64,000 bases of DNA from Acutalibacteraceae bacterium (GTDB lineage: Bacteria; Bacillota; Clostridia; Oscillospirales; Acutalibacteraceae). The first letter of the stretch is position 1. The number at the start of each line of letters is the position of its first letter. The notes below the pieces were generated by a model. The model made no database searches. It was given only the letters and a program-made list of their open reading frames with translations, and was not told where the DNA came from. The position numbers and the translations under genes are program-made. Positions 8,697-44,968 of the stretch are shown here, one piece after another. The stretch lies in assembly GCA_045629785.1 (NCBI GenBank), contig JAZQRX010000012.1, forward strand, positions 22,135-86,134. Reading direction: 5' to 3'.

Positions 8697-11126
8697 ATGA
8701 ATCTTCGCGATTATATAAAGGATAATTTAATAATTCTTGACGGTGGTACAGGTACCATTCTTCAGGCAAACGGCCTTAAATCAGGTGAGTTACCCGAAAG
8801 GTGGAATATTACTCACCCTGATGTGATAACTGACCTTCATAAGGCTTATTTTGATGCAGGCAGTAATGTTGTAAATGCCAATACCTTTGGTGCAAATATA
8901 CTCAAGTTCAGTAAAAATGAGCTTGAAGAAATTGTTGCGTCGGCTATGAATAACCTGAAAGCCGCACGTGAAATCAGTTCAGGTACTCAACCAAAATGGA
9001 TTGGCTTTGATATAGGCCCGACAGGTAAAATGCTCAAGCCCTATGGTGAGCTTGATTTTGAAGATGCCGTTAACGTTTTTGCCGAAAGTGTAAAGCTTGG
9101 TGTTAAATATGGGGCAGAGCTTTTCTTTATTGAAACAATGAATGATAGCCTTGAAACAAAGGCGGCACTTCTTGCAGTAAAGGAAAATTCAGATTTACCC
9201 GTTTTTGTTTCAAACGCTTATGGTGAAGACGGTAAGCTTATGACAGGTGCCGACCCATCTGCTATGATTGCCCTTTTAGAGGGTATGGGTGCCGATGCTA
9301 TCGGTGTAAACTGTTCTTTAGGCCCGAAGGCACTTACCCCCATTGTTGAAAAGTACCTTGAGCTTTCATCAACTCCCGTTATACTTAAGCCCAACGCAGG
9401 GCTTCCCAAGGTTGTTGACGGCAAAACAGTATTTGATGTTTTACCCGACGAGTTTTCTGCAGACGTTTATAACCTTGTGCTTAAAGGTGTCAGAGCGGTG
9501 GGTGGCTGCTGTGGTACAACACCCGACTATATTAAAGCGGTAAAATCAAAGGTTGATGGCTTTAATGTTCAACCTATAACAGCTAAAAATATTACTTGTG
9601 TTTCTTCGTATTCACACTGCGTTTCCTTCGGTGATAAGCCTGTTTTAATTGGTGAAAGAATTAACCCCACAGGCAAAAAGAAATTTAAAGAAGCACTTAA
9701 AAATAATGATATTGACTATATTTTAAAAGAGGGTATTGCCCAGCAGGAAAAGGGCGTTCATATCCTTGATGTTAATGTAGGTCTGCCCGAAATTGACGAG
9801 GCTTCAATGCTTACCACCGCAGTATGCGAGTTGCAGGCGGTTACTGATTTACCCTTGCAGATTGATACCTCTGACCCCGTTGCTATGGAAAGTGCTTTGC
9901 GCAGATATAACGGTAAGGCTATGCTTAACTCTGTAAACGGCAAAGAGGAGTCTATGAAAGCGGTTTTCCCCCTTGCAAAAAAGTATGGCGGTCTTATTGT
10001 TGCACTTACCCTTGATGAAAACGGAATCCCCGAAACTGCCGAGGGCAGGGTGGCTATTGCAAACAAAATTCTTGATACCGCAAAAGAATATGGTATAAGC
10101 AAAAAAGATATTATCTTTGACCCCCTTGCACTTACTATTAGTGCTGATAAAAACGCAGGCAAGGAAACACTCAAGGCAGTTAATATAATTAAAAATGAAT
10201 TAGGTTGTCACACCTCACTTGGTGTTTCAAACGTTTCGTTTGGTCTGCCTAACCGTGAAATTATAAACAGTAATTTCTTTACACTTGCCTTGTGGCAAGG
10301 TCTTTCAGGGGCTATAATGAACCCTTATTCTGACGAAATGCTTAAATCTTATTATGCGTATTGCGCTTTGAATGGTCTTGACGATAATTGTGCAGAATAT
10401 GTTTCATTTACCGAAACTCTGCCACAGACAGTAACAACTACACAGGTTGTAACAACATCTACCCAAAAGGAAGAAACTGCAACAGGCCTCAAAAGAGCGG
10501 TTATAAAGGGACTTAAGGAACAGGCGGCAACTTTAACGGATGAGCTTTTAAAGAGCCGAGAGCCCCTTGATATCGTCCGTAATGAGATTATTCCTGCCCT
10601 TGACGAGGTGGGTATAGGCTTTGAGAATAAAACCGTATATCTTCCACAGCTTCTTATGAGTGCCGAGGCGGCAAAAAGTTCATTTGAATGTATAAAAAAA
10701 GCCGTAGGTACAAATAAATCTGCAGATAAATGCAGTTTCGTCATAGCTACAGTAAAAGGTGATATTCACGATATCGGTAAAAATATTGTTAAATTGCTTC
10801 TTGAAAACTACGGCTTTGACGTACACGATTTAGGTAAAGACGTACCGCCTGAAGCGGTTGTTGATAAGGTCTGTGAGCTTAACGCTCCCTTGGTAGGCTT
10901 AAGCGCACTTATGACAACCACAGTACCTGCTATGGAAGAAACCATCAAGCTCCTTCGTGCAAAAGCACCTTGGTGCAAGGTTGTAGTCGGTGGTGCAGTA
11001 CTTACACAAGAGTATGCCGACTCCATCGGCGCAGATAAATATGCAAAAGATGCTATGGAGACGGTAAGATACGCAGAAATGCAAAATGCAGAATGCAGAA
11101 TTAAAGGGCGCAAGCGCGGATTATAA
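8697..11126 (+). CDS. metH: cobalamin-dependent methionine synthase, short form lacking the AdoMet reactivation domain
   Basis: Homocysteine S-methyltransferase domain (GGCCGTTPDYI), a pterin-binding domain, and a B12-binding domain with DIHDIGKNIV and GLSALMTTT. The protein ends right after the B12 domain. Confidence 0.85.
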   Translation: MNLRDYIKDNLIILDGGTGTILQANGLKSGELPERWNITHPDVITDLHKAYFDAGSNVVNANTFGANILKFSKNELEEIVASAMNNLKAAREISSGTQPKWIGFDIGPTGKMLKPYGELDFEDAVNVFAESVKLGVKYGAELFFIETMNDSLETKAALLAVKENSDLPVFVSNAYGEDGKLMTGADPSAMIALLEGMGADAIGVNCSLGPKALTPIVEKYLELSSTPVILKPNAGLPKVVDGKTVFDVLPDEFSADVYNLVLKGVRAVGGCCGTTPDYIKAVKSKVDGFNVQPITAKNITCVSSYSHCVSFGDKPVLIGERINPTGKKKFKEALKNNDIDYILKEGIAQQEKGVHILDVNVGLPEIDEASMLTTAVCELQAVTDLPLQIDTSDPVAMESALRRYNGKAMLNSVNGKEESMKAVFPLAKKYGGLIVALTLDENGIPETAEGRVAIANKILDTAKEYGISKKDIIFDPLALTISADKNAGKETLKAVNIIKNELGCHTSLGVSNVSFGLPNREIINSNFFTLALWQGLSGAIMNPYSDEMLKSYYAYCALNGLDDNCAEYVSFTETLPQTVTTTQVVTTSTQKEETATGLKRAVIKGLKEQAATLTDELLKSREPLDIVRNEIIPALDEVGIGFENKTVYLPQLLMSAEAAKSSFECIKKAVGTNKSADKCSFVIATVKGDIHDIGKNIVKLLLENYGFDVHDLGKDVPPEAVVDKVCELNAPLVGLSALMTTTVPAMEETIKLLRAKAPWCKVVVGGAVLTQEYADSIGADKYAKDAMETVRYAEMQNAECRIKGRKRGL

Positions 11127-11135
11127 TGCTGTCGC
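11092..11135 (+). repeat. left arm of long inverted repeat bounding the metH/GH36 intergenic repeat island
   Basis: AATGCAGAATTAAAGG...GCAA...ATTATAATGCTGTCGC. Its reverse complement recurs at 11891-11934. The arm overlaps the last 11 codons and the stop of metH. Confidence 0.75.
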
Positions 11136-11150
11136 AAAATTTGTAGTTGT

Positions 11151-11215
11151 GCGAAGCCTTACCTCCCTAAGCCTAGGGAGGGGGACCTCGCCTTTGGCGT
11201 GGTGGTGGGTAGTTC
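11151..11215 (+). repeat. two-hairpin repeat unit A, copy 1
   Basis: GCGAAGCCTTACCTCCCTaagccTAGGGAGGGGGACCTCGCCtttGGCGTGGTGGTGGGTAGTTC. A second copy lies at 44840-44906. Confidence 0.8.
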
Positions 11216-11259
11216 TTTTACTGCTTTTCTTCACTTAAATAGAATAATAGATTTGCTGT

Positions 11260-11295
11260 GTGGTCTACCTCTCTGGTTTAAGAGAGGGGGACCAC
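11260..11295 (+). repeat. hairpin repeat unit B, copy 1
   Basis: GTGGTC-TA-CCTCTCT-ggttta-AGAGAGG-GG-GACCAC. Also present inverted at 11627-11664 and 11826-11859. Confidence 0.85.
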
Positions 11296-11365
11296 CTTTT
11301 TGTCAAGTTGTTGCTTAATTTATTTTTCAAGCGTGTGATTACTTTCGTATAAATGGAAAGCTTGT

Positions 11366-11557
11366 CGGGTGGTGGAGAGTTCCCGATGCGGCAGCATCGT
11401 GGAAACGAAGTTTCCATTGGAATTTACTGAATGGATATATCATTTATTTACGAACAATAAATATAATGTTTCATGTTTCATTTTTATAGACATTCAGTAT
11501 ATTACAGTTGAATCTCACGATTCAAAACGCTGGCGCGTTGGAACTCTCCACCGCCCG
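11366..11557. mobile_element. 192-bp MITE-like element with 18-bp terminal inverted repeats and AT-rich centre
   Basis: CGGGTGGTGGAGAGTTCC (11366-11383) matches the reverse complement of GGAACTCTCCACCGCCCG (11540-11557) at 17/18. Each end is followed inward by a short GC hairpin: CGATGC-ggca-GCATCG and AACGC-tggc-GCGTT. Confidence 0.55.
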
Positions 11558-11626
11558 TCGGACTGTATTTTAAACATCTAATATTCACTCGTTTGCTACT
11601 TGATTTGTATAATAAAATAAATGTAA

Positions 11627-11664
11627 GGCGGTCCCCCTCTCTTAAACCAGAGAGGTAGACCGCC
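11627..11664 (-). repeat. hairpin repeat unit B, copy 2 (inverted)
   Basis: GGCGGTCCCCCTCTCTTAAACCAGAGAGGTAGACCGCC. The outer stem differs from copy 1 by a compensatory pair: GCGGTC/GACCGC versus GTGGTC/GACCAC. Confidence 0.85.
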
Positions 11665-11825
11665 AATATGTTTTTTATCGCTTGAAAGCTTGTTGTATAG
11701 GCAAGTAACGTTAAGCCCTCTTGTGGTACCCAAAATTGTTTGCTCGTTGTTCACTTCGCACAATTTTGACCACTGCGCCAACTCACACTCCCTGTATCGC
11801 CCACAGGGCGCGGTCGTGTTCCTTG

Positions 11826-11859
11826 CCCCCCTCTCTTAAACCAGAGAGGTAGACCACAC
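11826..11859 (-). repeat. hairpin repeat unit B, copy 3 (inverted, one outer half-stem lost)
   Basis: CCCCCCTCTCTTAAACCAGAGAGGTAGACCACAC. Confidence 0.8.
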
Positions 11860-32528: not shown

Positions 32529-32990
32529 TTAATACGCACACTTTTTACAAGGACCATAACTTCCACTTACATCGTCGAGGTCTCGTTCCATAGCATTTTT
32601 ACCTGCACATGCCTTGCTGTAGTGATACTTTGAGCCCGTTGGTGTTATATATACAGTTGTACCACTTTTTTGTTCTTCAGTTTCTTCTTCAGTTTCTTCT
32701 TCGGTTTCTTCTTCGATTTCTTCTTTAGTTTGCTTTTCTGTTAGTTCTTCAGTTTGTTCGTTGGTTTCTTCTTCAATTTCTTCGGTCGCTTCTTCGGTGG
32801 TATCTTTTTCGTTTTTCTCTGTGCTTTCTGATGTTGGTTTTTTAGTTGAGGGTTGTATGGTTTCTTCTGTTGTAATTGTTGTTTCTTCGGTTGTTTCTGT
32901 GTTTTCGGTTGTTTCACTACAAGCGATAAGCGACAAAGTGAAACATAGTACAAGTACTACAGATATGATTTTTTTGTTTATATTCTTCAT
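32529..32990 (-). CDS. acidic lipoprotein with Glu/Thr repeat and C-terminal Cys-containing GSKYH...C...CKKC module
   Basis: Signal peptide with lipobox SLIAC, a long E/T-rich region, and the C-terminal TGSKYHYSKACAG...GPCKKC. Confidence 0.65.
   Translation of the reverse strand: MKNINKKIISVVLVLCFTLSLIACSETTENTETTEETTITTEETIQPSTKKPTSESTEKNEKDTTEEATEEIEEETNEQTEELTEKQTKEEIEEETEEETEEETEEQKSGTTVYITPTGSKYHYSKACAGKNAMERDLDDVSGSYGPCKKCAY
32673..32732 (-). repeat. 12-bp in-frame tandem repeat (about 5 units) encoding (E-E-T-E)n
   Basis: TTCTTCAGTTTC TTCTTCAGTTTC TTCTTCGGTTTC TTCTTCGATTTC TTCTTTAGTTTG on the plus strand. Confidence 0.85.
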
Positions 32991-44823: not shown

Positions 44824-44839
44824 CTAAAACAAAAGGAAC

Positions 44840-44906
44840 GCGAAGCCTTACCTCCCTGACCATAGGGAGTGGGACCGTTGCCTTTAGCAACGGTGGTGGG
44901 TAGTTC
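44840..44906 (+). repeat. two-hairpin repeat unit A, copy 2
   Basis: GCGAAGCCTTACCTCCCTgaccatAGGGAGTGGGACCGTTGCctttaGCAACGGTGGTGGGTAGTTCC. The flanks match copy 1 at 11151-11215, and the second stem is rewritten with pairing preserved. Confidence 0.8.
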
Positions 44907-44935
44907 CGTTTATCGTTAGCCTTCAGTTGCTCAAA

Positions 44936-44968
44936 ACAAAACCCCACAGAGTTTTCTCTGTGGGGTTT
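44936..44968. terminator. bidirectional terminator between the transporter and the APC permease
   Basis: CCCCACAGAG-tttt-CTCTGTGGGG, a perfect 10-bp stem with an A-run upstream and TTT downstream. Confidence 0.8.

What the first reader, a model, noticed from the sequence alone, without database searches (positions are those of the whole stretch)
44840..44906. Repeat unit A recurs 33 kb away with compensatory changes that preserve a stem
Copy 1 (11151-11215) and copy 2 (44840-44906) share identical flanks: GCGAAGCCTTACCTCCCT ... GGTGGTGGGTAGTTC. The second internal helix is rewritten. Copy 1 reads ACCTCGCC-ttt-GGCGTGGT and copy 2 reads ACCGTTGC-cttta-GCAACGGT. Several positions differ on both strands while pairing is kept. 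The first helix (CTCCCT/AGGGAG) keeps its stem while its loop differs. Both copies sit in the same orientation a few tens of nt after the stop of a plus-strand gene. This covariation argues for selection on secondary structure in RNA or single-stranded DNA, not simple sequence drift.
Basis: seen in the sequence. Interest (0 to 1): 0.65.

Follow-up and report, generated by a model that had tools for sequence, protein, structure and literature searches.

The report
Three-strand hairpin repeat from nuclease cassettes
The two look-alike stretches are stray single copies of a folded DNA repeat that, in related gut Clostridia, brackets a small DUF559 nuclease gene. Its variable hairpin always pairs and its G-rich tail mirrors the first stem, as in the 'triplex' repeats of E. 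coli, so it looks like selfish repeat DNA and not a host regulatory RNA.

Summary
Both copies exist, share identical 18- and 15-nt flanks (chance expectation 0.01), and differ in a second hairpin that still pairs.

In 70 distinct relatives from other genomes, both helices are supported: 94.7% of cells pair against 79.7% in shuffles, and 78 copies carry 52 different versions of hairpin 2.

The G-rich tail after hairpin 2 is the mirror image of the purine strand of helix 1, and it changes with that strand across seven helix types (45 of 48 unforced units fit a mirror better than a direct repeat). This is the layout of the BoxC/PIT/TMECO intrastrand-triplex repeats, but here the second loop is replaced by a sequence-free clamp hairpin.

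The units are the inverted ends of small DUF559 (Vsr-like nuclease) cassettes. No RAYT gene was seen beside any unit, though I did not search for one.

Copy 2 is a 107-bp insert between a stop codon and a terminator. Two syntenic relatives have the empty site. Three near-identical strains have let helix 1 and the tail decay.

Verdict: a real structured repeat, most likely selfish DNA, and a new variant of a known kind. The nuclease-driven mechanism and the triplex fold are inferred, not shown.

The parts
44824..44930 (+). Copy 2, whole insert (107 bp). It lies between the TAA stop of the MFS gene and the terminator.
   Evidence: It is absent from the syntenic loci L073 and L086, whose intergenic gaps are 59 and 55 nt, against 163 nt here. 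There is no R1 hit in L073-L075. It is present in L072 and L087.
44824..44850 (+). 5' extension CTAAAACAAAAGGAAC plus GCGAAGCCTTA.
   Evidence: The same A-rich lead-in and GCGAAGCC are shared by about 30 copies of the subfamily.
44851..44857 (+). Helix 1, pyrimidine strand CCTCCCT.
44864..44870 (+). Helix 1, purine strand AGGGAGT. The last base is mutated; relatives have G.
44874..44894 (+). Hairpin 2: ACCGTTGC-cttta-GCAACGGT. ACC/GGT are invariant closing pairs and the inner stem is free in sequence.
44895..44901 (+). Tail (third strand) GGTGGGT, the mirror of AGGGAGG with T opposite A.
44902..44930 (+). 3' extension AGTTCCGTTTATCGTTAGCCTTCAGTTGC(TC).
   Evidence: It is shared with other copies (…GTAGTTCC…AGCCTTC[A/T]GTTG).
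44939..44968 (.). Context, not part of the element: a palindromic intrinsic terminator of the convergent genes.
   Evidence: The empty sites keep it.
11151..11246 (+). Copy 1. Its parts are GCGAAGCCTTA, helix 1 (11162-11168 / 11175-11181), GGG, hairpin 2 (11185-11203), tail GGTGGGT (11204-11210), and a 3' extension up to CTTCACTTAAATAGAA.
   Evidence: The 3' extension matches the leader of the L053 cassette up to its ATG.
11073..11150 (+). Upstream module joined to copy 1: hairpin GGCGC-aa-GCGC, GATTATAAT, GCTGTCGC…. It overlaps the last codons of metH.
   Evidence: Similarity to L002, L008, L039, L043 and L051 starts at 11073-11077. The same module stands before 10 of 31 copies.
11268..11380 (+). 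Unit of the same family with helix 1 CCTCTCT/AGAGAGG, a 69-nt insert in the hairpin-2 loop, and tail GGAGAGT.
   Evidence: R1 hit, E = 2.4e-11. The layout matches the 5' end of the L061 DUF559 cassette.
11543..11655 (-). Inverted partner of the previous unit.
   Evidence: R1 hit, E = 1.4e-11.
11792..11853 (-). Degenerate unit of the family.
   Evidence: R1 hit, 24.7 bits, E = 2.4e-8.

Best explanation
Unit A is a solo copy of the roughly 110-bp terminal arm of small DUF559-nuclease cassettes that are common in rumen and gut Clostridia.

Each arm reads, in order:
- a pyrimidine strand
- a loop
- a purine strand
- GGG
- hairpin 2
- a G-rich tail

Helix 1 is a Watson-Crick hairpin. The tail is the mirror of its purine strand, so it can lie back on helix 1 as a purine-motif third strand (G*G:C, T/A*A:T). 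Hairpin 2 is a sequence-free clamp. Its invariant ACC/GGT closing pairs bring the 3' end of the purine strand and the 5' end of the tail together. Only its pairing matters, so its sequence drifts or is rewritten freely.

The fold matters for the element's own spread or upkeep as DNA. That DNA would be a single strand during replication or repair, or extruded under supercoiling. The cassette's nuclease presumably recognises it.

It does not serve the host. Copy 2 was inserted between a stop codon and a terminator and is now decaying.

Shown: family membership, covariation in both helices, the mirror tail, DUF559 bracketing, the empty sites, and the decay.

Inferred: triplex formation, the clamp role of hairpin 2, and the role of the nuclease.
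For: - **Family.** 54 genome loci and 17 metagenome loci carry the unit, giving 70 distinct copies in alignment A1.
- **Helices.** 94.7% of cells pair against 79.7% in shuffles. The hairpin-2 columns show 3-5 pair types each. Among 78 copies there are 52 distinct hairpin-2 sequences. The mean flush stem is 6.8 pairs within a copy against 4.3 when arms from different copies are combined.
- **Mirror tail.**
  - Seven helix-1 types each carry their own mirror tail: AGGGAGG>GG[T/A]GGG[T/A], AGAGAGG>GGAGAGT, AGAAAGG>GGAAAGT, AAGAAGG>GGAAGAT, AAGGAGG>GGAGGAT, AGGAAGG>GGAAGGT, AGGAGGG>GGGAGGT.
  - Among units whose tail was not fixed by the first retrieval pattern (57 units), a unit's own mirror beats every other type in 51.
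  - Among the 48 distinct such units, the mirror fits with 0.42 mismatches per 7 against 2.08 for a direct repeat, and is better in 45.
- **DUF559.** PF04480 at E = 1e-27. The genes lie between units in 11 repeat-sampled loci. All four lineages sampled by protein show the same bracketing.
- **Hairpin 2 is not nuclease-specific.** Cassettes with nucleases 88-93% identical carry different versions of hairpin 2.
- **Large inserts sit in the hairpin-2 loop** and are still closed by ACCACC/GGTGGT.
- **Empty sites** are seen in L073 and L086. The MAG behind L086 has the repeat elsewhere, at L017.
- **Decay.** There are 9 variable sites among 3 strains. All lie in the element and none in the 56 nt outside it.
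- **Published relative.** In E. coli, the published TMECO pattern lies about 170 nt from ycjD, the DUF559 gene in the 12 kb examined. The triplex fold of TMECO was shown in vitro (PMC4666352).
Against: - No triplex, nuclease activity, cut site or transposition event has been shown for this family.
- Two units (L006, L051) have a changed helix 1 with an unchanged tail (6 of 7 triplets).
- Some subfamilies place the tails pointing away from the gene (L013), so the cassette layout is not uniform.
- How a solo arm could arise from an inverted pair is unexplained. The nuclease could be a passenger or a homing gene that targets the repeat.
- The retrieval patterns fixed part of helix 1 and ACC/GGT, so invariance there is partly by construction.
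- The copies are related by descent, so the shuffle statistics overstate independence.
None lies in the 64-kb window.
Confidence: 0.6

Rival explanations
1. The unit acts in the host as a cis-acting RNA at gene 3' ends, for example an mRNA-stabilising or terminating structure or a 3'-UTR-derived small RNA. On this reading, covariation reflects selection on RNA folding.
For: - Both window copies lie just after stop codons and are co-oriented with the upstream gene.
- About two thirds of subfamily copies have a co-oriented ORF upstream (a noisy measure).
- G.T pairs outnumber A.C (17 against 6) in hairpin 2, which favours folding of the + strand.
- Other copies appear in metatranscriptome contigs.
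Against: - There is no Rfam match.
- The unit has no T-run, and a separate terminator follows copy 2. That terminator is all that the empty-site relatives have.
- Orthologous copies lose helix-1 pairs at about the rate of silent sites.
- Units occur in both orientations, as doublets, and around a nuclease gene.
- The mirror tail has no role in an ordinary RNA hairpin, and purine-motif triplexes are reported not to form in RNA (PMC4666352, introduction).
- RNA coverage of this locus was too thin to test.
Confidence: 0.1
2. The paired changes in hairpin 2 are a by-product of mutation, not of selection. Quasi-palindrome template switching, or gene conversion between copies, repairs one arm from the other. 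Any short palindrome then stays perfect while its sequence wanders.
For: - Whole stems differ as blocks (AAAATC, AAAAGC, GTTGCC, GCGCC, GCGACG…) rather than by single pairs.
- The same blocks recur in different genomes.
- Hairpin 2 shows no relation to the nuclease lineage.
- Established knowledge: quasi-palindrome-templated mutation in bacteria (Ripley; Lovett laboratory), cited from my own knowledge.
Against: - It does not explain the invariant ACC/GGT closure.
- It does not explain why a hairpin stands at exactly this place across phyla.
- It does not explain why 69-nt inserts are tolerated only in its loop.
- It does not explain the three-way match of the tail with helix 1.
- It can act together with the main explanation.
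Confidence: 0.2
3. The repeat is the target of the nuclease, not its vehicle. DUF559 would be a homing-type endonuclease gene that inserts into a pre-existing host or selfish palindromic doublet, and solo units would be uncut or half sites.
For: - Inverted doublets without a gene, about 100-115 nt apart, are common (L007, L049, L060, L068, L070, L071).
- The window itself has such a pair at 11268-11655.
- Cassettes sit exactly between inward-facing units.
Against: - No intact empty doublet has been matched to a filled one at the same locus.
- Copy 2 is a single arm inserted on its own.
- The repeat's own spread would still need another mechanism.
Confidence: 0.15
4. The two copies resemble each other only by chance or assembly artefact.
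For: None beyond the modest single-sequence z-scores.
Against: - The identical 18-mer occurs twice, with 0.01 expected.
- More than 100 related units were found in other assemblies.
- The locus with the unit was recovered in independent bovine metagenome contigs and in two other assemblies.
Confidence: 0.01

Closest known systems
BoxC / PIT elements / TMECO intrastrand-triplex motif repeats (Hoyne et al. 2000; Holder et al. 2015, PMC4666352)
   Same: - The order is pyrimidine stem, loop, purine stem, spacer, then a G-rich stem that mirrors the purine stem (purine-motif class).
- Both are multi-copy and intergenic.
- The loops are less conserved than the stems.
- In E. coli MG1655 a copy matching the published pattern lies about 170 nt from the DUF559 gene ycjD.
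   Different: - The stems are 7 nt (CCTCCCT type), not 9 nt (CCCTCNCCC).
- The 3-nt second loop is replaced by GGG plus a 12-31-nt hairpin, or a hairpin with a 69-nt loop. The ITxF search (loops 1-6 nt) could not have found it.
- The hosts are Clostridia, Absconditabacterales (CPR), Synergistaceae and Melainabacteria, not Enterobacteria or Cyanobacteria.
- The published work found no link to mobile elements or to any gene.
REP / REPIN - RAYT systems (Nunvar 2010; Bertels and Rainey 2011; my own knowledge)
   Same: - Short structured intergenic repeats occur as singlets and as inverted doublets.
- A small single gene is bracketed by inverted copies of the same repeat.
- Copies accumulate after gene 3' ends.
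   Different: - The bracketed gene is a PD-(D/E)xK Vsr-like DUF559 nuclease, not an IS200/IS605-type Y1 transposase.
- The unit has two hairpins plus a mirror tail, not one imperfect palindrome with a GTAG head.
- No mobilisation has been shown.
MITE-like and mosaic repeats of Firmicutes (BOX, RUP, SPRITE of Streptococcus pneumoniae; my own knowledge)
   Same: Modular, hairpin-rich, intergenic, mosaics of sub-units, and found in many copies.
   Different: - A solo unit A has no terminal inverted repeats.
- No clear target-site duplication was found, only a possible 9-nt AAAACAAAA repeat.
- There is no transposase relative.
- It has the mirror-repeat tail.
Free-standing homing endonuclease genes of the Vsr-like/EDxHD kind (I-Bth0305I; my own knowledge)
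   Same: A small nuclease gene is the only cargo of a short selfish cassette.
   Different: - The flanks here are inverted structured repeats that also exist alone in many copies.
- No intron, intein or defined homing site is involved.

Membership tests
Intrastrand triplex motif repeats (TM / TMECO = BoxC = PIT) | A pyrimidine stem and a purine stem form a Watson-Crick hairpin. | tested here: met
   Helix 1 pairs in 98.4% of cells. Three pairs change on both sides.
Intrastrand triplex motif repeats (TM / TMECO = BoxC = PIT) | A third stem mirrors the purine stem and obeys the G*G:C and A/T*A:T triplets. | tested here: met
   Seven helix types each have their own mirror tail. The mirror fits with 0.42 mismatches per 7 against 2.08 for a direct repeat, and is better in 45 of 48 unforced units. 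L006 and L051 are exceptions.
Intrastrand triplex motif repeats (TM / TMECO = BoxC = PIT) | The published pattern CCCTCNCCC-N3-6-GGGNGAGGG-N3-GGGNGAGGG, or the ITxF limits (stems 6-15 nt, loops 1-6 nt). | tested here: not met
   The stems are 7 nt and within range. The second loop is 15-34 nt (GGG plus a 12-31-nt hairpin) or more than 100 nt. The sequence also differs from the pattern in PMC4666352.
Intrastrand triplex motif repeats (TM / TMECO = BoxC = PIT) | Many intergenic copies per genome. | tested here: inconclusive
   There are five units in this 64-kb window and several per MAG. Metagenome word depth peaks 18-fold over the unit.
Intrastrand triplex motif repeats (TM / TMECO = BoxC = PIT) | The triplex fold is shown physically (CD, NMR, footprint). 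| not testable with these tools
   The folding tools model Watson-Crick and wobble pairs only.
REP/REPIN-RAYT | A RAYT (IS200/IS605-like Y1 transposase) gene is flanked by the repeat. | tested here: not met
   The gene flanked by the units is DUF559 (PF04480) in 15 loci. No RAYT gene was seen beside any unit. I did not search the loci for RAYT specifically, and no genome-wide search was possible.
REP/REPIN-RAYT | Singlets and inverted doublets of a short palindromic unit. | tested here: met
   Solos (window copy 2) and doublets about 100-115 nt apart (L007, L049, L068, L070, L071).
MITE | Terminal inverted repeats and a target-site duplication. | tested here: inconclusive
   Solo unit A has no terminal inverted repeats. 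The only direct repeat at the one datable insertion is a 9-nt AAAACAAAA, and it overlaps the element's own conserved lead-in.
Any Rfam RNA family | A match to a covariance model. | tested here: not met
   Only a tRNA is found in the window at gathering score. Nothing on the units at E <= 1 in five loci.
Intrinsic terminator | A GC-rich hairpin followed by a T-run. | tested here: not met
   The only terminator-like site near copy 2 is 44939-44968, outside the insert.

The most novel reading that the evidence does not exclude
A three-stranded DNA fold, held together by a sequence-free clamp hairpin, is the selected end-structure of a widespread and undescribed class of selfish cassettes whose only gene is a DUF559 (Vsr-like) nuclease. 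The fold is helix 1 plus a mirror tail as a purine-motif triplex. The cassettes occur in Clostridia, CPR bacteria (Absconditabacterales), Synergistaceae and Melainabacteria, and E. coli BoxC/TMECO with ycjD would be the same system. The three-way covariation of pyrimidine strand, purine strand and tail would then be comparative evidence that an intrastrand DNA triplex is under selection in living cells. DUF559 would be the missing enzyme partner of an orphan repeat class.
Probability: 0.3. Interest if true: 0.8.

Novelty: new variant of a known kind. Interest (0 to 1): 0.55.

Why it matters
BoxC/PIT/TMECO repeats have been known since the 1990s, with no partner protein and no accepted function.

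This family adds three things:
- The same mirror-repeat logic in distant phyla.
- A third strand that changes together with the duplex in seven helix types.

It also ties the repeats to DUF559, one of the large nuclease families of unknown function.

If the fold and the nuclease link hold up, they would give a testable mechanism for a whole class of bacterial repeats, and a natural case of selected triplex DNA.

For genome annotation the practical point is smaller. These units break metagenome assemblies (many DUF559 contigs are under 1.5 kb). They can also supply gene 3' ends.

Tried and rejected
- **Whole-genome tools.** I could make no whole-genome census and no search for DUF559 or RAYT in the window's own assembly.
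- **Exact look-up of the amino-acid permease** found nothing. The MFS gene's homologues worked instead.
- **Rfam.** Nothing was found at the gathering score or at E <= 1.
- **RNA evidence.** Four metatranscriptome runs gave only thin contig coverage of this locus. They say nothing on transcript ends, although other copies of the family appear in RNA contigs.
- **Skipping joints.** No joint skipping the unit was found in four DNA metagenomes. The empty sites came from more distant relatives.
- **Gene-context statistics from raw ORFs** were too noisy to claim a rule of position after stop codons.
- **Target-site duplication.** Only a 9-nt A-rich repeat was found. It overlaps the element's own conserved lead-in, so I do not claim it.
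- **Tail pairing with the pyrimidine strand.** I considered that the tail is a direct copy of the purine strand, giving an alternative Watson-Crick partner for the pyrimidine strand (a switch). I rejected this because the direct model fits far worse than the mirror model.
- **Strict perfect-stem detector.** It missed the units around the protein-sampled DUF559 genes. The covariance model and the inverted-repeat search found them.
- **Literature.** No paper was found linking DUF559 with these repeats. There is one table row listing DUF559 as enriched among predicted inversion targets (PMC9881135).

Full report
**1. The observation**

The two copies read as described.
- The 18-mer GCGAAGCCTTACCTCCCT occurs exactly twice in the window, with 0.01 expected by chance.
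- The 15-mer GGTGGTGGGTAGTTC occurs exactly at both copies. Two 2-3-mismatch relatives lie at 11368 and 11541.
- Between the flanks, helix 1 is CCTCCCT/AGGGAGG. Its loop differs between the copies.
- Hairpin 2 keeps its outer ACC/GGT pairs and has three inner pairs changed on both sides.

Two small corrections are needed. Copy 1 has a T.T mismatch in hairpin 2, and copy 2 has a C.T mismatch at the base of helix 1.

Both copies follow the stop codons of + strand genes. These are metH (812 aa) and an MFS_2 transporter gene (726 aa).

Each copy alone folds only moderately better than shuffled sequence (z -1.7 to -2.5 as RNA or DNA, on either strand). Two copies therefore could not settle the matter.

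**2. More copies**

- A pattern that left two positions of each helix-1 strand, all of hairpin 2 and the far tail free found 54 genome loci.
- Most come from Acutalibacteraceae and other Clostridia MAGs of ruminant and rabbit guts.
- Others come from Christensenellaceae, Oscillospiraceae, Phascolarctobacterium, Synergistaceae, Melainabacteria, Absconditabacterales and Peribacteria.
- One Acidobacteria hit (L027) is a chance match.
- A second pattern excluded the common helix 1 and left the tail free. It found 17 metagenome loci.

The window's organism occurs in bovine, sheep and pig gut metagenomes.

**3. Covariation**

Seventy distinct copies align well (A1). Results for the two helices I named:

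| Measure | Observed | Control |
|---|---|---|
| Cells forming a standard pair | 94.7% | 79.7% in shuffles; 39-75% with the partner slid |
| Covariation score | 0.336 | 0.105 in shuffles (0 of 500 as high) |
| Pair types per variable hairpin-2 column | 3-5 | - |

- The 78 copies carry 52 different hairpin-2 sequences.
- The flush stem averages 6.8 pairs within a copy. It averages 4.3 when the 5' arm of one copy meets the 3' arm of another.
- Helix 1 has three pairs with changes on both sides. One is the eighth pair (T-A against A-T), which the scan did not constrain.
- Caveats: the copies are related by descent, and the retrieval fixed ACC/GGT and part of helix 1. The inner hairpin-2 columns were unconstrained.

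**4.

After the closing GGT of hairpin 2 comes GGTGGGT. This is the purine strand AGGGAGG read backwards, with T opposite A.

When helix 1 differs, the tail differs to match:

| Purine strand of helix 1 | Tail |
|---|---|
| AGGGAGG | GG[T/A]GGG[T/A] |
| AGAGAGG | GGAGAGT |
| AGAAAGG | GGAAAGT |
| AAGAAGG | GGAAGAT |
| AAGGAGG | GGAGGAT |
| AGGAAGG | GGAAGGT |
| AGGAGGG | GGGAGGT |

- Among 57 units whose tail was not fixed by the first retrieval pattern, a unit's own mirror fits better than the mirror of every other helix type in 51.
- Among the 48 distinct such units, the mirror model gives 0.42 mismatches per 7 against 2.08 for a direct repeat. It is better in 45.
- Switches occur inside single subfamilies that share the same loop and flanks ('ggcga': CCC against CTC; 'tcga/tcaa': CTC, CCTCCTT, CCTTCTT). 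The match is therefore not one ancient split.
- Two units (L006, L051) changed helix 1 without changing the tail.

A mirror repeat cannot pair by Watson-Crick rules. It is the signature of a purine-motif third strand: antiparallel to the purine strand, with G*G:C and T/A*A:T triplets.

The geometry fits. The tail starts where the purine strand ends, with only GGG plus hairpin 2 between them.

**5. Comparison with the known triplex repeats**

Holder et al. 2015 (PMC4666352) define TMECO as CCCTCNCCC-N3-6-GGGNGAGGG-N3-GGGNGAGGG. The same repeat was earlier called BoxC and PIT.
- They showed a triplex in vitro.
- They found the motif in more than 260 genomes.
- They saw no link to mobile elements.
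- They state that purine-motif triplexes do not form in RNA.

The present units have the same order of parts and the same mirror rule. They differ in having 7-nt stems and a second loop made of GGG plus a hairpin. That hairpin (ACC to GGT) is 12-31 nt, or carries a 69-nt insert in its loop, as at window 11268-11380 and in the L061 cassette.

I therefore call this a new variant that works like a TM repeat, not a member of TMECO as published.

My reading of hairpin 2 is that it is a clamp. It keeps the two ends of a long linker together so the tail can reach helix 1. This would explain three things:
- Only pairing is conserved.
- The ACC/GGT closure never varies.
- Inserts land in its loop.

This reading is inference.

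**6. The gene that goes with it**
- In L012, L038 and L053, inverted units with tails facing inward bracket a 132-aa ORF. The ORF is DUF559, PF04480, at E = 1e-27.
- An iterated search of all ORFs in the loci found DUF559 next to units in 11 loci.
- As a test in the other direction, I sampled homologues of the protein at 61-70% identity without regard to repeats. I then fetched their contigs.
- All four lineages (L076, L079, L083, L084) are bracketed by inverted repeats carrying AGGGAGGGGGACC…GGTGGTGGGTAGTTC and by R1 model hits.
- No RAYT gene was seen beside any unit, though I did not search the loci for one.
- Cassettes with nearly identical nucleases carry different versions of hairpin 2, so hairpin 2 is not a specificity element.
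- In E. coli MG1655, a copy of the published TMECO pattern lies about 170 nt beyond ycjD, the DUF559 gene in the 12 kb examined. Holder et al. report 23 copies in 4.6 Mb.
- The only printed hint I found is one table row that lists DUF559 as enriched among predicted inversion targets (PMC9881135). Searches for a described link found nothing.

**7. What the window's copies are**

The covariance model R1 finds five units in the window:
- copy 1
- copy 2
- an inverted pair with 69-nt loop inserts, at 11268-11380 (+) and 11543-11655 (-)
- a degenerate unit at 11792-11853 (-)

The 3' extension of copy 1 (…CTTCACTTAAATAGAA) matches the leader of the L053 cassette up to its ATG. It is therefore a cassette arm without its gene.

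No DUF559 gene lies in the 64-kb window.

Copy 2 is a lone arm.
- In two syntenic relatives, the gap between the MFS gene and the convergent permease gene is 59 and 55 nt. These are L073 (MFS 84% identical) and L086 (85%).
- That gap is the stop codon, 6-7 nt, and the terminator CCCCACAGAG…CTCTGTGGGG.
- In the window and in two strains at 97-98% (L072, L087) the gap is 163 nt.
- The insert is 44824-44930 (107 bp).
- The MAG behind L086 carries the repeat elsewhere (L017), so its site is truly empty.
- A 9-nt direct repeat, AAAACAAAA, flanks the insert. It overlaps the element's own conserved lead-in, so I do not call it a target duplication.

**8. No sign of host function**

Among the three strains that carry copy 2, nine sites vary. 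All lie inside the 107-bp element, and none lies in the other 56 nt, which include the terminator.
- Three changes break helix-1 pairs.
- One change hits the tail.
- No change hits hairpin 2. About 1.8 would be expected if the nine were spread evenly, so this is not significant.

Divergence of the element between the window and L072 (5.6%) lies between the third-position divergence of the two flanking genes (9.9% and 2.8%).

The unit has no T-run, and a separate terminator follows it. No Rfam family matches. RNA data for the locus were too thin to use.

The structure therefore seems to matter when the element multiplies, and not for the neighbouring genes afterwards.

**9. Mechanism, and how sure I am**

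Shown:
- a structured repeat family
- two covarying helices
- a mirror tail that covaries with helix 1
- bracketing of DUF559 genes
- insertion polymorphism
- decay of a resident copy

Inferred:
- The fold is a DNA triplex with a clamp hairpin.
- The nuclease recognises or processes it.
- Solos are non-autonomous or relic arms.

I put 0.6 on the overall reading. The specific nuclease-plus-triplex mechanism gets about 0.3.

Rivals:
- a host RNA element (0.1)
- purely mutational upkeep of the palindrome, which can coexist with the main reading (0.2)
- the repeat as the homing target and not the vehicle (0.15)

**10. Earlier notes of this scan**

Notes on the same genome and on other genomes had already linked such repeats with DUF559 and BoxC. 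I used them as leads only.
- I re-derived the DUF559 link from my own loci, in both directions.
- I tested the mirror rule here.
- I checked the E. coli ycjD case directly.

Noticed in passing
window 11268-11380 (+) and 11543-11655 (-): The '36-nt unit B' and the '192-bp MITE with 18-bp terminal repeats' are not separate things. Each unit B hairpin, a 69-nt AT-rich insert and the 'terminal repeat' GGTGGTGGAGAGTTC together form one full unit of the same family (helix 1, a hairpin 2 with a large loop, and the mirror tail). The two units face each other like a cassette that has lost its gene.
   Followed up: partly
L059, L062, L064, L066, L022, L035 (after the tail); window 11383-11400: Many units carry a third variable hairpin just after the tail (GCGCC-gaaa-GGCGC, GCACC-gaaa-GGTGC, GCCC-gtca-GGGC, CGATGC-ggca-GCATCG). 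In several subfamilies it is followed by GTATAAT, a -10-like box facing the cassette interior. This may be the promoter of the nuclease gene.
   Followed up: no
window 11073-11150: A further module (a short GC hairpin, GATTATAAT, GCTGTCGC…) precedes copy 1 and 10 of 31 other copies. In the window it overlaps the last codons of metH, so the end of metH may be supplied by repeat DNA.
   Followed up: partly
L076-L079: Some DUF559 cassettes sit between genes of what looks like a peptide-maturation cluster (PqqD, ScmC-like, radical SAM). L079 has two DUF559 genes about 1.1 kb apart, with several units around each.
   Followed up: no
one search hit list: Many close DUF559 homologues are known only from contigs of 500-1500 bp. 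This suggests that these repeat-flanked cassettes routinely break metagenome assemblies. In one search, contigs also end at the unit, and word depth rises about 18-fold over 44844-44877.
   Followed up: no
L013 3155-3678: In the 'GATTC-tail' subfamily (Christensenellaceae) the two units around the DUF559 gene point their tails away from the gene. This is the opposite of the Acutalibacteraceae cassettes.
   Followed up: no
L088 7400-7430 (E. coli ycjD 3' end): The last codons of ycjD contain CCCTCTCCC-tgaaagagc-GAGGGGG, a second partial pyrimidine/purine hairpin. This is in addition to the full TMECO copy about 170 nt downstream.
   Followed up: no
window 32645-32846: Twelve-base tandem repeat (TTTCTTCTTCAG-like, about 17 units). 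It probably encodes a Glu/Lys-rich repeat on the minus strand.
   Followed up: no
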